Positions 1 to 6,000 of a DNA stretch of 64,000 nt are shown here, piece after piece. Made by a program: the position numbers. Origin of the DNA: Escherichia coli O157:H7 (lineage in GTDB: Bacteria; Pseudomonadota; Gammaproteobacteria; Enterobacterales; Enterobacteriaceae); NCBI RefSeq assembly GCF_013167455.1, contig NZ_CP038328.1, one strand, 5' to 3'. Numbering within the stretch: the first letter of the stretch is position 1; the number at the start of each line of letters is the position of its first letter.

Positions 1-3000
1 ATTCCCGGGGGCTATTACCACTGCTGGCAAACGTCGCCAGAGTCGATCCGCTGGCCGCCGCGCGCACCAGTATTCAATGCTTAACCCTATAACAATTAAG
101 GCTGCAATCAATGGAACTTCGAAATAAGAAATTAACCCATGACGAATTCATGACCGAGCGGCAACAGGTACTGAAAACCTGGGAAACCGGCAAGGATGTT
201 GAAAACTTTGAAGATGGCGTTAAATACCAACAAACCATCCCTGAGCATAAACGTTTCTCTCTTGCGCTGCTGAAAGCAGACAAGGAAGGTAAAACCCTTA
301 GCCAACCGCGCGCAGGTGTGGCGCTGATGGACGAACACATCGAACTGCTGAAAACACTACAAGAAGAGTGCGATCTGCTGCCAAGCACCATCGATGCATA
401 TACCCGTCTGAATCGGTACGAAGAAGCGGCTGTAGGGATTAAAAAATCCATCGAAGCCGGAACCTCTAAACTGAACGGTTTACCGGTAGTTAACCATGGT
501 GTCGCAGCTTGCCGTCGCCTCACCGAAACCCTGCAAAAACCGCTACAGATCCGCCACGGCACGCCAGATGCGCGTCTGCTGGCTGAAATCTCAATGGCCA
601 GCGGCTTTACCAGTTATGAAGGCGGTGGCATTTCCTACAACATTCCGTATGCCAAACGCGTAACGCTGGAAAAATCGATCCGCGACTGGCAGTACTGCGA
701 CCGTTTAATGGGGATGTATGAAGAACACGGGATCCGCATCAACCGCGAACCGTTTGGCCCACTAACGGGTACGCTGATCCCGCCGTTTATCTCGCACTCT
801 ATCGCGATAATCGAAGGCTTGCTGGCGCTGGAACAGGGTGTGAAATCTATCACCGTTGGTTATGGCCAGGTCGGCAGCCTGACGCAGGATGTTGCGGCGA
901 TCCAGTCTCTGCGTGAACTTGCACACGAATATTTTCAGAGCTATGGCTATACCGACTATGAATTGAGTACCGTGTTTCACCAGTGGATGGGCGGCTTTCC
1001 GGAAGACGAATCGAAAGCGTTCGCTATTATCTCCTGGGGCGCAGCCGTCGCGGGGATGTCTGGTGCCACCAAAGTCATCACCAAAAGTCCGCACGAAGCC
1101 TGGGGTATCCCGACTGCCGCTGCCAACATTCAGGGGCTGAAAGCCTCCCGCCAAATGCTCAACATGGTCAATGAGCAGAAATTCCCGCCGTGCCCTGCGG
1201 TTGAACTGGAAATTGAACTGATTAAGAGCGAGGTTCGCGCGGTACTGAATAAAGTGTTCGAACTGGGTAATGGTGATATTGCGCGCGGAACGGTGCTGGC
1301 ATTTGAAGCGGGCGTACTGGATGTGCCGTTTGCGCCAGCCGCCTGCAACGCGGGCAAAATTCTTCCGGTCCGTGACAACACCGGCGCGATACGCGTACTG
1401 GAAGCCGGAGCCGTTCCATTGCCAAAAGATATTCTCGACCTCCACCACGATTACGTTGCGGAACGCGCACGCTGTGAAGGACGCCAACCGACATTCCAGA
1501 TGGTTGTAGATGACATCAATGCTGTATCCCACAGTAAATTAATAGGAAGACCATAATGAAAATAAAACAGGCTCTGTTCACCGCTGGCTACTCCTCATTC
1601 TATTTCGATGACCAGCAGGCGATAAAAAACGGAGCGGGTCATGACGGCTTTTTTTATACCGGGGAGCCAGTAACACAGGGGTTTAACGCCGTACGTCAGG
1701 CCGGGGAGTGCGTATCGGTACAGTTGATTCTGGAAAACGGCGCGGTCGCCGTAGGTGACTGTACTGCCGTACAGTATTCCGGGGCAGGCGGTCGCGATCC
1801 ACTGTTCCTCGCAGAGCACTTTATTCCGTTCCTCAACGACCATATCAAGCCATTACTGGTAGGCCGCGATGTGGATGCTTTCCTGCCGAATGCCCGTTTC
1901 TTCGACAAATTGCGTATTGACGGCAACTTGCTGCATACCGCCGTGCGCTACGGATTATCACAGGCGCTGCTTGATGCTACCGCGCTGGCAACCGGCCGTC
2001 TGAAAACTGAAGTGGTCTGTGATGAATGGCAGTTGCCACGCGTGGCGGAATCCATTCCATTATTTGGTCAGAGCGGCGACGATCGATATATCGCCGTCGA
2101 TAAGATGATCCTTAAAGGCATCGACGTGCTGCCCCATGCGCTGATTAATAACGTCGAAGAGAAGCTGGGCTTTAAAGGTGAAAAACTGCGCGAATATGTC
2201 CGCTGGTTGTCGGATCGCATTCTAAGCAAGCGCACCAGCGCACGCTACCACCCTACCCTGCACATCGATGTATACGGCACTATCGGTCTGATCTTCGATA
2301 TGGATCCGCTTCGCTGTGCGCAATACATCGCCAGCCTGGAAAAAGAAGCGCAAGGCCTGCCGCTCTACATCGAAGGGCCGGTCGATGCCGGTAACAAGCC
2401 CGATCAAATTCGCCTGCTGACCGCGATTACCAAAGAGCTGACGCGCCTCGGTTCCGGCGTGAAAATTGTGGCCGATGAATGGTGTAACACCTACCAGGAT
2501 ATTGTTGATTTCACTGATGCTGCCAGTTGTCACATGGTGCAAATCAAAACCCCGGATCTGGGCAGTATTCACAACATCGTCGATGCGGTTCTTTACTGCA
2601 ACAGCCACAGCATGGAAGCGTACCAGGGCGGCACCTGCAATGAAACTGATGTCAGTGCCCGCACCTGTGTCCACGTCGCCCTTGCCGCTCGCCCCATGCG
2701 TATGCTGGTAAAACCAGGGATGGGCTTTGACGAAGGCCTCGATATCGTCTTCAACGAAATGAATCGTACTATCGCGCTGTTGCAGGCTAAGGATTAACAA
2801 ATGGCTCGTTCTTTTAAAGTCTTATCGCCAACGGCAATCCTCGGGTATGGATTCCCGGAAGAGAGCTTCCGCAAAGCGATGGCAGAATCGCCCGATCTGA
2901 TCGCCGTTGATGCAGGCTCTTCCGATCCAGGCCCCCACTACCTCGGGGCAGGCAAACCGTTTACCGATCGCGCAGGGGTCAAGCGCGATCTGCGCTATAT

Positions 3001-6000
3001 GATCACCGCAGGCGTGCAAAATAATATACCGGTGGTGATCGGAACGGCTGGCGGTTCTGGTGCCGCACCACACCTGGAGTGGTGCCGAGAAATAATTCAT
3101 GAGATTGCCCGGGAAGAGCACCTCTCGTTCTCGATGGCGTTGATCCCGGCAGACGTTGACAAAGCCATCGTCCACCAGGCGCTGGATAACGGCAAAATCA
3201 CGGCGCTGGATTTTGTCCCGCCGTTAACCCACGACGCGATTGACGAAAGTACGTATATCGTCGCGCAAATGGGCATCGAACCCTTCCAGCGGGCGCTGAA
3301 AGAACGCGCGCAAGTGGTGCTGGGCGGGCGCGCTTACGACCCGGCCTGCTTTGCTGCGCTCCCGATCATGCAAGGCTTTGATGAAGGTCTGGCGCTGCAT
3401 TGTGGGAAAATCCTTGAATGCGCGGCAATCGCCGCAACGCCCGGCTCAGGCTCTGACTGTGCGATGGGCATCATTGATGACAACGGCTTTACGCTGAAAA
3501 CATTTAATCCGAAGCGTAAATTTACCGAAACGTCAGCAGCTGCACACACACTGTATGAGAAATCCGATCCCTACTTCCTGCCAGGACCTGGCGGCGTGTT
3601 GAACCTGAAAGGCTGCACATTTAAAGCAGTAAATGACGGCGAAGTCTACGTCAGCGGTTCTAAGCATGAAGAAACGCCGTATGCCCTGAAACTGGAAGGT
3701 GCACGACGGGTGGGCTTCCGCTGTCTGACCATCGCCGGAACGCGCGACCCGATTATGATCGCCGGGATCGATAAAATCATCGATGAAGTCAAAACCAGCG
3801 TTTCGCGTAACCTGTCGCTCGACGATGACAGCATTCGCATCAATTTCCACCTGTACGGCAAAAACGGGGTGATGGGAGACCATGAACCGATGCAAACTGC
3901 CGGGCATGAGCTGGGGATTGTCCTTGATGTAGTTGCACCGACCCAGGAAATTGCCAACAGCGTTTGCTCGCTGGTGCGCTCTACCATGCTGCACTACGGC
4001 TATGAAAACCGCATCGCTACCGCAGGTAATCTGGCGTTCCCGTTCTCCCCTTCTGATATCCAGGGCGGGCCGGTATACGAATTTTCCATATATCACCTGA
4101 TTGAAGCCAACGACGCTCTGCGTTTTGATTTCCATATTGAACAGGTGACGCCAGAAGGAGTTCAGGCATGAAACAGTCAATTGTCTCACTGGCGCAAGTC
4201 ATTCGTTCGAAAAATGCCGGACCTTACGAACTGGTTTTAGATATTTTATTTAAAACGAAAGAAAACTATGAGCGAGTTAAATCATCAGGGCAATTAACCC
4301 CAGAACTGATTGCACGCTTATATCATGTTGAACCTGACTTTATTCATCGTATTGTCTGGTTTGATCCTTCTAACGCAGTAAAAATCGTCATGCCACGAGA
4401 TATTATCTCCGGGAATGTAGGTGACAATGATGTCTATGGTGCACAGCAACATGCACCTTTATTAAATATGAGTTTCGATTTGTAAAAATCCGAATACTTT
4501 TAGCCAACTGACATCCCGTCACTTATTGCAGTTCAACACTTCAGCTATTTGTAAGGTTGTAATAGCAGGTAGATGCCTGAATCTCTATTCAGGCATCTAC
4601 TTCTCCTGATTCTGATTTATCGCCGTGCACCTGATGGAGGAAAAAATGAAGAAAATAAGTTTAACCACGATGATTCTTTTGGCGCTGGTACTTGGAATGA
4701 TTATCGGCGTAGTGCTCAATAACACTGCTTCACCGGAAACCGCAAAACTCTATGCGCAAGAAATATCGATATTCACGACGATTTTCTTACGACTGATAAA
4801 AATGATTATCGCTCCGTTAGTGGTCTCTACCCTGGTGGTAGGTATTGCTAAAATGGGCGATGCCAAAGCCCTTGGTCGTATTTTTTCTAAAACACTCTTT
4901 TTATTTATTTGCGCCTCATTGCTGTCAATTGCCTTAGGCTTGATAACGGTAAATTTCTTCATGCCAGGTACAGGAATTAATTTTGTTGCACACGGTGCCG
5001 AAACCACCGGAGTGGTCGCGGCAGAACCCTTTACGCTAAAAGTATTTATTTCGCATGCTTTCCCCACCAGCATTGTCGATGCCATGGCGCACAATGAAAT
5101 TTTGCAAATCGTGGTGTTCTCAATTTTCCTCGGCTGTAGCCTGACGGCGATTGGCGAGAAAGGCAGCGCCATCGTTCACGCCTTAGATTCGCTGGCACAT
5201 GCCATGTTAAAGCTCACTGGCTACGTCATGCTCTTCGCTCCCCTGACCGTATTCGCTGCTATTTCAGCATTGATTGCTGAACGAGGACTGGCAGTTATGG
5301 TGAGCGCCGGGATCTTTATGGGTGAATTTTATTTCACCATGTTATTACTTTGGGTACTGCTTATCGGTCTGGCCATCGTTTATGTCGGCCCCTGCATCAG
5401 ACGCCTGACCCGCGCCCTTTCGGAACCCGCCCTGCTGGCATTTACCACATCCAGTTCTGAAGCGGCTTTTCCGGGAACGCTTGAAAAACTGGAGCAATTT
5501 GGCGTTTCCCCCAAAATTGCCAGCTTTGTCTTACCCATTGGCTACTCATTTAATCTCGTTGGATCAATGGCCTACTGCTCCTTCGCCACAGTTTTCATCG
5601 CCCAGGCCTGCAATATCCATTTATCCATCGGTGAGCAAATCACCATGCTGTTGATCCTGATGTTGACCTCGAAAGGAATGGCTGGCGTACCACGCGCCTC
5701 AATGGTGGTTATCGCCGCCACGCTCAACCAGTTCAATATTCCGGAAGCGGGGCTGATCTTGCTGATGGGCGTTGATCCGTTCCTTGATATGGGGCGTTCC
5801 GCGACAAACGTCATGAGCAACGCAATGGGCGCTGCGATGGTGAGTCGGTGGGAAGGCGAACATTTCGGCGAGGGCTGTCGGGGTAAAGCATTAAAACCCA
5901 ATGAATCGAACGTTGCTCTGCCCTGAGGGGGATCTTAAGCAATCAGAAGCCAATGACTACGCATTTTTATAAGCCGGATCATGAAGTTAGACGGCAATTA

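What the first reader, a model, noticed from the sequence alone, without database searches (positions are those of the whole stretch)
2801..4485. Translationally coupled pair of unknown-function proteins inside the glutamate mutase/lyase operon
A 456 aa and a 105 aa ORF with 4-nt stop/start overlap sit between the lyase and the transporter/hydratase genes. The known route (glutamate to methylaspartate to mesaconate to citramalate to pyruvate plus acetate) needs a citramalate-cleaving step that is not otherwise encoded in this cluster. The pair is therefore a candidate for an uncharacterised enzyme or activation step. I recall the likely family (AtuA-like) as lacking a defined biochemical function.
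Basis: inference. Interest (0 to 1): 0.7.

Follow-up and report, generated by a model that had tools for sequence, protein, structure and literature searches.

The report
CmlAB citramalate lyase genes, already characterised
The two overlapping genes encode the large and small subunits of a recently solved citramalate lyase that splits citramalate into pyruvate and acetate.

Summary
ORFs of 456 aa (2801-4171) and 105 aa (4168-4485) overlap by ATGA and lie between the methylaspartate ammonia-lyase gene and the transporter and mesaconase (fumD) genes. The window is E. coli O157:H7 chromosome.

The pair is no longer of unknown function. It is 92% and 85% identical, over full length, to chains A and B of PDB 9ERQ/9EVF (released Oct 2025). 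Those chains were deposited as "Citramalate lyase, subunit A (cmlA)" and "subunit B (cmlB)", in complexes with AMPPNP plus citramalate and with ADP plus pyruvate. A 2026 preprint uses the Raoultella planticola cmlAB enzyme in vivo to cleave citramalate into pyruvate and acetate.

My own tests agree. Among 80 genomes from many phyla, cmlB is adjacent in 76 of 77 scorable loci. The lyase gene mal lies directly upstream in 70 of 75, and glmE is present in 66 of 71. Fungi carry the two subunits as one fused protein. The AlphaFold model superposes on 9EVF (TM 0.97) and has no other close fold relative.

What I could not settle is the role of the nucleotide. I favour ATP as a co-substrate that activates the carboxylate as an acyl phosphate (about 50%), but it could be only an effector.

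The parts
2801..4171 (+). cmlA, the large subunit of citramalate lyase (456 aa, AtuA family). It has an N-terminal alpha/beta domain, a beta-rich middle part and a C-terminal ferredoxin-like domain.
4168..4485 (+). cmlB, the small subunit of citramalate lyase (105 aa, DUF4387).
   Evidence: ORF. Pfam DUF4387 PF14330, E 2.9e-39. It is 88/104 = 84.6% identical to 9ERQ/9EVF chain B, 'Citramalate lyase, subunit B (cmlB)'. It lies next to cmlA in 76 of 77 scorable genome loci and is fused to the C-terminus of CmlA in fungal homologues.
4168..4171 (+). ATGA stop/start overlap between cmlA and cmlB (translational coupling).
   Evidence: Read directly from the sequence. The same 4-nt overlap occurs in distant loci L005 and L009.
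4156..4160 (+). Shine-Dalgarno-like AGGAG for cmlB, inside the 3' end of cmlA and 7 nt before the ATG.
   Evidence: Sequence. Inferred from the consensus only.
2789..2793 (+). Shine-Dalgarno-like AAGGA for cmlA, 7 nt before the ATG and overlapping the end of mal.
   Evidence: Sequence. Inferred from the consensus only.
111..1556 (+). glmE, glutamate (methylaspartate) mutase subunit E. This is pathway step 1. glmS and glmL lie just upstream of the window.
   Evidence: TIGR01503, 866 bits. RefSeq annotation.
1556..2797 (+). mal, methylaspartate ammonia-lyase. This is pathway step 2.
   Evidence: TIGR01502, 543 bits. RefSeq annotation.
4646..5926 (+). Dicarboxylate/amino acid:cation symporter (GltP/DctA-like), the presumed glutamate importer of the island. 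This is the RefSeq start; the longest ORF starts at 4625.
   Evidence: NCBIfam DctA/GltP matches, below the curated cut-offs. RefSeq coordinates.
6034..7686 (+). fumD, class I fumarase/mesaconase. This is pathway step 3 and makes (S)-citramalate, the substrate of CmlAB.
   Evidence: NF011921, 1287 bits. Characterised biochemically by Kronen & Berg 2015, PMC4682846.
7696..8298 (+). cobA/cobO, cob(I)alamin adenosyltransferase, which supplies the coenzyme B12 cofactor for glutamate mutase.
   Evidence: NF004637, 296 bits. RefSeq annotation.
8332..9237 (-). Divergent LysR-family regulator, the presumed regulator of the island.
   Evidence: NCBIfam GcvA-like match, below cut-off. RefSeq annotation. 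The regulatory role is inferred.

Best explanation
The two genes are cmlA and cmlB. They encode the large (AtuA-family) and small (DUF4387) subunits of a heteromeric (S)-citramalate lyase that needs neither CoA nor an acyl carrier protein.

The enzyme catalyses the last step of the methylaspartate route of glutamate fermentation encoded by this island:
1. glutamate to methylaspartate (GlmSE, B12-dependent)
2. methylaspartate to mesaconate plus ammonia (Mal)
3. mesaconate to (S)-citramalate (FumD)
4. (S)-citramalate to pyruvate plus a C2 acid (CmlAB)

Shown by others for the 92%/85% identical orthologue: the protein pair binds citramalate together with an ATP analogue, binds pyruvate together with ADP, and converts citramalate to pyruvate and acetate in vivo.

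Inferred by me: the O157:H7 pair does the same. I base this on full-length identity, the same predicted fold, conserved invariant residues and identical synteny.

My preferred mechanism is an inference, at about 50%. ATP is a co-substrate. It phosphorylates the C4 carboxylate of citramalate to an acyl phosphate. That makes the alpha-carbon acidic enough for retro-aldol C2-C3 cleavage, in the way the thioester does in CitDEF-type lyases and ATP-citrate lyase. The products would be pyruvate and acetyl phosphate (or acetate plus phosphate), and acetate kinase could recover the ATP.

The overlapping ATGA and the internal Shine-Dalgarno motif suggest coupled translation of the two subunits.
For: - **Identity to the solved enzyme.** phmmer E 1.3e-291 over residues 1-456 and E 5.2e-57 over 1-104 to 9ERQ/9EVF chains A and B, which are named citramalate lyase subunits cmlA and cmlB. 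That is 92.1% and 84.6% identity.
- **Ligands.** The entry titles are 'Citramalate lyase - ADP - pyruvate complex' and 'Citramalate lyase - AMPPNP - citramalate complex'.
[quoted passage not shown] Growth was mesaconate-dependent and was lost on plasmid curing, and label passed from mesaconate into acetyl-CoA-derived leucine.
- **Context.** mal is directly upstream in 70/75 loci, glmE is present in 66/71, and cmlB is adjacent in 76/77, across Proteobacteria, Riflebacteria, Lentisphaerae, Aminicenantes, Spirochaetes, Chloroflexi, Firmicutes, Planctomycetes and others (also 28-33).
- **No alternative lyase.** None is annotated in the island or the window, and citrate lyase of this strain does not cleave citramalate (PMC4682846).
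- **One functional unit.** Fungal proteins of 608-621 aa fuse CmlA to CmlB.
Against: - No activity has been measured for the O157:H7 proteins themselves. Kronen & Berg could not find conditions under which this strain expresses the island or ferments glutamate.
- I could not find or read the primary paper behind 9ERQ/9EVF. The functional name therefore rests on the depositors' titles and on a user's preprint.
- Against the acyl-phosphate mechanism: the preprint describes the product as acetate and never mentions ATP, and Acs (acetate activation) was upregulated in the evolved strains.
- The kinase-fold similarity is at a level that generic alpha/beta domains also reach. RecA-like helicase domains score the same.
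- I could not inspect ligand geometry.
Confidence: 0.88

Rival explanations
1. Same enzyme and same reaction, but the adenine nucleotide is not consumed. CmlAB would perform a direct, probably metal-assisted, retro-aldol cleavage of free citramalate to pyruvate and acetate. The carboxylate carbanion would be stabilised in the way isocitrate lyase does it. ATP/ADP would bind only as an allosteric or structural ligand.
For: [quoted passage not shown] The similarity to kinase folds is weak. A stoichiometric ATP cost would be expensive in a low-yield fermentation (established bioenergetics; inference).
Against: The substrate complex was trapped with the non-hydrolysable analogue AMPPNP and the product complex holds ADP. 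That is the usual design when ATP is turned over (inference). The Gly-rich and acidic loops typical of phosphate and Mg binding are among the most conserved motifs in the clade, and several of their residues (D42, G44, G87, R177, D180) are conserved across the wider family.
Confidence: 0.35
2. The O157:H7 pair has drifted to another substrate or is non-functional. It could be an orthologue in name only, for example a lyase for another 3-hydroxy-3-alkyl acid (as proposed for AtuA) or a decaying remnant of an unexpressed island.
For: Expression of the island and growth on glutamate could not be demonstrated for this strain. Relatives at 57-68% identity occur without glm/mal neighbours, in Accumulibacter, Holophagaceae, Desulfospira and Haliea. 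The Haliea pair lies next to acyl-CoA carboxylase genes.
Against: Both ORFs are intact and full-length. They are 92% and 85% identical to the solved enzyme, with every clade-invariant residue kept. Synteny with glmSLE-mal-fumD is identical to the other enterobacteria. The 1685 bp are kept at >=95% identity in 1125 E. coli genomes. FumD from the same island is fully active.
Confidence: 0.05
3. The pair is not a lyase here but an accessory factor for the upstream enzymes. It might activate or repair glutamate mutase or methylaspartate ammonia-lyase, or be a second ammonia-lyase as old annotations say.
For: Databases still carry the name '3-methylaspartate ammonia-lyase' for family members. The pair sits tightly packed directly after mal.
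Against: There is no match to the methylaspartate ammonia-lyase model or to any enolase-superfamily model. Kronen & Berg already called that annotation unexplained. The Raoultella enzyme works in E. coli K-12 derivatives fed mesaconate, where no glutamate mutase or Mal is involved. The crystal ligands are citramalate and pyruvate, not methylaspartate. GlmL already fills the mutase chaperone role.
Confidence: 0.02

Closest known systems
CmlAB citramalate lyase (PDB 9ERQ, 9EVF; the Raoultella planticola enzyme from the Berg laboratory, used in bioRxiv 10.64898/2026.01.16.699985)
   Same: Two subunits of 456 and 105 aa, 92% and 85% identical. The predicted fold is the same (TM 0.97). The gene order glmS-glmL-glmE-mal-cmlA-cmlB-transporter-fumD matches other enterobacteria.
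   Different: There are 36 substitutions in CmlA and 16 in CmlB, none at clade-invariant positions. No activity data exist for the O157:H7 proteins, and the host strain has not been seen to express the island. Among my loci the PDB sequence is closest to Klebsiella spallanzanii (98.0%) and Citrobacter (97.4% and 97.1%), with the Raoultella locus at 96.9%.
[quoted passage not shown]
   Same: Same Pfam family. The proposed reaction has the same form: loss of acetate from R-C(OH)(R')-CH2-COO-, leaving a ketone (PMC4847356; the chemistry comparison is my inference). A 57%-identical CmlAB-like pair in Haliea sits beside acyl-CoA carboxylase genes, as in atu clusters.
   Different: AtuA proteins are single chains of about 600 aa (615 aa in T. 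linaloolentis), the length of a CmlA+CmlB fusion. Their substrate would be a CoA ester with a long side chain, and their activity has never been shown directly. The window protein matches the Pfam model only weakly (64 bits over residues 63-394).
Classical citramalate lyase / citrate lyase complex (CitDEF type, EC 4.1.3.22 / 4.1.3.6) of Clostridium tetanomorphum and relatives
   Same: Same overall reaction and same place in the methylaspartate pathway. In clostridial clusters citDEF occupies the position that cmlAB has here (PMC4682846).
   Different: No homology. The classical enzyme has three subunits, including an acyl carrier protein with a phosphoribosyl-dephospho-CoA prosthetic group. 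It works by acetyl-thioester exchange and needs the accessory genes citC, citX and citG. None of these is in the island or the window.
(S)-citramalyl-CoA lyase (Ccl / CitE-like, HpcH-family TIM barrel) together with a citramalate CoA-transferase
   Same: It also converts citramalate carbon to pyruvate plus a C2 unit, in mesaconate and itaconate utilisation.
ATP-citrate lyase and amino-acid-kinase-fold carboxylate kinases (a mechanistic analogy only)
   Different: There is no sequence similarity, and the structural similarity is within the range of generic alpha/beta sandwiches. ATP-citrate lyase also needs CoA. Phosphoryl transfer by CmlAB is my hypothesis, not a shown fact.

Membership tests
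CmlAB-type citramalate lyase (as defined by PDB 9ERQ/9EVF) | Large AtuA-family subunit with full-length, high-identity match to CmlA | tested here: met
   E 1.3e-291 over residues 1-456 of 456; 92.1% identity.
CmlAB-type citramalate lyase (as defined by PDB 9ERQ/9EVF) | Small DUF4387 subunit encoded immediately downstream and matching CmlB | tested here: met
   E 5.2e-57 over residues 1-104; 84.6% identity; 4-nt overlap with cmlA.
CmlAB-type citramalate lyase (as defined by PDB 9ERQ/9EVF) | Same three-dimensional fold as the solved large subunit | tested here: met
CmlAB-type citramalate lyase (as defined by PDB 9ERQ/9EVF) | Genomic association with the genes that produce citramalate from glutamate (glmSE, mal, class I fumarase/mesaconase) | tested here: met
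   Met in the window. Met in 70/75 (mal) and 66/71 (glmE) scorable genome loci.
CmlAB-type citramalate lyase (as defined by PDB 9ERQ/9EVF) | Catalytic cleavage of (S)-citramalate to pyruvate plus acetate | not testable with these tools
   Known only for the Raoultella orthologue, from the preprint and the PDB ligands. An enzyme assay of the O157:H7 pair is needed.
CmlAB-type citramalate lyase (as defined by PDB 9ERQ/9EVF) | Adenine-nucleotide binding (AMPPNP/ADP in the crystal complexes) | not testable with these tools
Indirectly, all clade-invariant residues, including the Gly-rich and acidic loops, are retained.
Pfam AtuA (PF07287) / DUF4387 (PF14330) | Significant match to the family HMMs | tested here: met
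   AtuA E 1.5e-17 (64 bits, residues 63-394). DUF4387 E 2.9e-39 (134 bits). No NCBIfam model matches either protein.
Classical CitDEF-type citramalate/citrate lyase | Alpha (CitF), beta (CitE) and acyl-carrier gamma (CitD) subunits plus the CitC/X/G activation genes | tested here: not met
   No NCBIfam or Pfam match of either ORF to Cit proteins. No cit genes are annotated in the island or elsewhere in the window.
Methylaspartate ammonia-lyase (legacy database name for this protein) | Enolase-superfamily MAAL_N/MAAL_C domains; match to TIGR01502 | tested here: not met
   TIGR01502 matches the upstream gene (543 bits) and not ORF456. Pfam finds only AtuA. Kronen & Berg flagged this misannotation.
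Amino-acid-kinase fold (carboxylate/phosphate kinases) | Clear structural superposition of the alpha/beta/alpha sandwich with its nucleotide- and phosphoryl-binding loops | tested here: inconclusive

The most novel reading that the evidence does not exclude
CmlAB may cleave a free carboxylic acid by first turning its carboxylate into an acyl phosphate with ATP, releasing acetyl phosphate so that the ATP is recovered by acetate kinase. If so, the same chemistry may run through the whole AtuA/DUF4387 family. [quoted passage not shown] The fungal CmlA-CmlB fusions (one with an added CoA-transferase domain) would be lyases for other tertiary hydroxy acids. The conserved P-loop gene that follows cmlB outside the enterobacteria would be a further, undescribed component. 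The depositors of 9ERQ/9EVF probably already know the first part; the family-wide extension and the P-loop partner are not in anything I could read.
Probability: 0.4. Interest if true: 0.6.

Novelty: already known. Interest (0 to 1): 0.3.

Why it matters
This enzyme closes the gap that Kronen & Berg left open in 2015, the fate of citramalate in the enterobacterial glutamate fermentation island. About a fifth of complete E. coli genomes carry that island (1125 of 5426), as do many opportunistic pathogens.

It also gives the large, widespread AtuA/DUF4387 family its first defined reaction. The family has about 2400 clusters at 50% identity in bacteria and fungi. The enzyme is already being used in synthetic C1-assimilation pathways because it needs no CoA or carrier protein.

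For annotation, the practical point is that RefSeq, Pfam and NCBIfam still call these proteins 'AtuA family protein' and 'DUF4387', and some records still say '3-methylaspartate ammonia-lyase'. For this scan, the finding is a correct rediscovery and not a new lead.

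Tried and rejected
- **Literature.** The first search was swamped by Portuguese 'atua...' words. Searches for DUF1446/DUF4387/PF07287/PF14330, citramalate lyase with CmlA/CmlB/9ERQ, with Raoultella, with glutamate fermentation, with ADP/AtuA and citramalate with AtuA found no primary description of CmlAB. Three related Berg/Erb-area papers do not mention it.
- **NCBIfam.** No model matches either protein.
- **Foldseek against the PDB.** Nothing was found besides the enzyme itself, with the next E-value at 5.5e-3.
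- **The search for related loci.** It was repeated with a 14-sequence alignment.
- **The 314-aa hypothetical protein upstream of glmS in O157.** I tested whether it is the counterpart of the conserved P-loop gene that follows cmlB in other phyla. It is not (BLASTP E 7.9).
- **The P-loop protein.** It has no Pfam, NCBIfam or PDB family beyond its Walker A motif.
- **Readings considered and rejected.** A second ammonia-lyase, a mutase accessory factor, and a CitDEF-like lyase (see the rival explanations and the membership tests).

Full report
**1. The observation**

The ORF list gives 2801-4171 (+, 456 aa) and 4168-4485 (+, 105 aa). The sequence shows the ATGA overlap at 4168-4171. It also shows Shine-Dalgarno-like motifs 7 nt before each start: AAGGA at 2789-2793 and AGGAG at 4156-4160.

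Upstream are methylaspartate mutase subunit E (111-1556) and methylaspartate ammonia-lyase (1556-2797). Downstream are a GltP/DctA-like symporter, the class I fumarase FumD (6034-7686), a cob(I)alamin adenosyltransferase and a divergent LysR regulator.

The window is E. coli O157:H7 chromosome, 100% identical to NZ_AP018488.1. The island lies between cydAB and sucABCD, with glmS and glmL just outside the window. The 1685 bp occur at >=95% identity in 1125 of 5426 complete E. coli genomes. Pfam assigns AtuA (E 1.5e-17, residues 63-394) and DUF4387 (E 2.9e-39), and NCBIfam has no model for either protein.

**2. What was already written about this locus**

Kronen & Berg (PLoS One 2015, PMC4682846) characterised FumD from this island as a mesaconase. 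[quoted passage not shown]

They found no citramalate lyase activity in citrate-, acetate- or propionate-grown cells.

**3. What it is**

A sequence search of the PDB settles it. ORF456 matches 9ERQ/9EVF chain A over its whole length (E 1.3e-291, 420/456 identical). ORF105 matches chain B (E 5.2e-57, 88/104 identical). The depositors name these chains 'Citramalate lyase, subunit A (cmlA)' and 'subunit B (cmlB)'.

The entry titles are 'Citramalate lyase - ADP - pyruvate complex' (released 2025-10-08) and 'Citramalate lyase - AMPPNP - citramalate complex' (released 2025-10-22).

[quoted passage not shown] With FumA it allowed mesaconate-dependent growth of an acetyl-CoA auxotroph. That growth was lost on plasmid curing and was confirmed by isotope labelling.

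I could not find the primary paper in the searchable library.

**4. Independent tests run here**

(b) Conservation. None of the 36 differences from the solved CmlA falls on a clade-invariant column.

Five diverged homologues (62-68% identity) were looked up. Four lie in glmS-mutL-glmE-mal-cmlA-cmlB clusters, in Riflebacteria, Lentisphaerae and two metagenomic lineages. One, from Accumulibacter, stands alone.

A scan of 100,044 species genomes returned 80 loci at 57-99% identity from more than ten phyla. I scored them with tblastn, counting only loci with enough contig to judge:

| Feature | Loci |
|---|---|
| mal directly upstream | 70 of 75 |
| glmE present | 66 of 71 |
| cmlB adjacent | 76 of 77 |

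(d) Fusions. Representatives of 608-621 aa carry CmlA followed by CmlB in one chain. These come from fungi (Tremella, Sporothrix, Exophiala, Scheffersomyces). One protein from a member of the Xylariaceae adds a family III CoA-transferase domain. This confirms that the two ORFs form one functional unit.

(e) No competitor. Neither the island nor the remaining 50 kb or so of the window encodes a CitDEF-type lyase.

**5. Mechanism**

Shown by others for the orthologue: citramalate and an ATP analogue bind together, pyruvate and ADP bind together, and the carbon ends up as pyruvate and acetate.

Inferred here: the O157:H7 pair is an active orthologue.

The open point is what the nucleotide does. 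Cleaving free citramalate requires a carbanion next to a carboxylate. Classical citrate and citramalate lyases avoid this by working on a thioester, and isocitrate lyase stabilises such an anion directly (established enzymology).

The pairing of AMPPNP with substrate and ADP with product is the usual design when ATP is turned over. The most conserved motifs are Gly-rich and acidic loops (DAGSxDPGP, IGTAGGSG, GGRAYD). Several of their residues (D42, G44, G87, R177, D180) stay conserved across the wider family, along with E206, E253 and E299.

I therefore favour, at about 50%, ATP-dependent formation of citramalyl phosphate, followed by retro-aldol cleavage to pyruvate and acetyl phosphate or acetate plus phosphate. 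The rival, at about 35%, is a direct cleavage with the nucleotide as an effector. The rival fits the preprint's wording and the Acs upregulation in its evolved strains.

The 2015 extract assays contained no ATP or Mg. That is compatible with either model, because the island was not expressed in those cells anyway.

**6. Comparison with known systems**

The pair is a member of the CmlAB citramalate lyase group. Every feature testable here is met (see the membership tests).

It belongs to Pfam AtuA and DUF4387. [quoted passage not shown] That reaction has the same form: acetate leaves a tertiary beta-hydroxy acid. A 57%-identical pair in Haliea lies beside acyl-CoA carboxylase genes, as in atu clusters.

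It is not related to CitDEF-type lyases, to citramalyl-CoA lyase, or to methylaspartate ammonia-lyase, its legacy name.

**7. Novelty and verdict**

The function is on public record (PDB, October 2025; preprint, January 2026), and the locus itself was described in 2015. The finding is therefore already known.

Its description of the family as uncharacterised is outdated, although RefSeq, Pfam and NCBIfam names still lag behind.

Residual interest lies in three things: the nucleotide's role, the extension to the AtuA family, and an undescribed P-loop gene that accompanies cmlB outside the enterobacteria. Interest 0.3.

Noticed in passing
L009:10677-11618; also L002:10712-11665, L003:14269-15201, L007:10698-11654, and 43 of the 80 loci L011-L090: An ORF of 310-318 aa with a Walker A motif (GVIGAEGAGKST) directly follows cmlB in every non-enterobacterial lineage sampled, including Rhodocyclales, Riflebacteria, Aminicenantes, Spirochaetes, Chloroflexi, Firmicutes and Planctomycetes. 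It is absent from all the enterobacterial islands. It has no Pfam, NCBIfam or PDB family beyond the P-loop, and it is not homologous to the 314-aa hypothetical protein upstream of glmS in O157. It may be an undescribed accessory component of the cml module.
   Followed up: partly
P0146, P0166, P0214, P0237, P0238 (608-621 aa); P0150 (1096 aa): Most of the single-chain CmlA-CmlB fusions come from fungi (Tremella, Sporothrix, Exophiala, Scheffersomyces); P0214 is an unnamed JGI protein. The Xylariaceae protein P0150 adds a C-terminal family III CoA-transferase domain (E 2e-23). Some of these are still named '3-methylaspartate ammonia-lyase' in UniRef.
   Followed up: partly
L088:5184-11673 (Haliea sp. 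MAG): A cmlAB-like pair at 57% identity, with no glm/mal nearby, lies divergently next to acyl-CoA carboxylase beta (577 aa) and biotin carboxylase/BCCP (938 aa) genes. This is an atu/liu-type context and suggests a different hydroxy-acid substrate.
   Followed up: partly
L005/L006/L038 (Accumulibacter), L053 (Holophagaceae), L073 (Desulfospira): These cmlA-cmlB pairs (58-68% identity) have no glutamate mutase or mal genes within 10 kb. In Accumulibacter the pair sits between an amylomaltase gene and rpoC. The source of citramalate, or the true substrate, in these organisms is unknown.
   Followed up: partly
window 4569-4600: A perfect 14-bp inverted repeat (GTAGATGCCTGAAT-CTCT-ATTCAGGCATCTAC) lies in the 160-bp gap between cmlB and the transporter gene, followed by a moderately T-rich stretch. 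It could be an internal terminator or attenuator, or a regulator binding site. The consensus scan picked up only part of it.
   Followed up: no
L011 (contig JAIJJM010000101.1, labelled Collinsella sp. MAG): This 7.3-kb contig carries glmE-mal-cmlA-cmlB-transporter-fumD-cobA at 99-100% amino-acid identity to the E. coli window. It is almost certainly an E. coli contig mis-binned into an actinobacterial MAG.
   Followed up: no
L001:2460-3404 and 3486-3908 (upstream of glmS, outside the window): Two 'hypothetical protein' genes (314 and 140 aa) sit between cydA and glmS at the edge of the O157 island. Neither has an NCBIfam match.
   Followed up: partly
window, about 36200-43400 (record 801266-808755): An RHS element core protein gene, a frameshifted ybfC, an NTF2-fold immunity protein gene and an ISEc1 transposase lie elsewhere in the window. 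They are unrelated to the finding.
   Followed up: no
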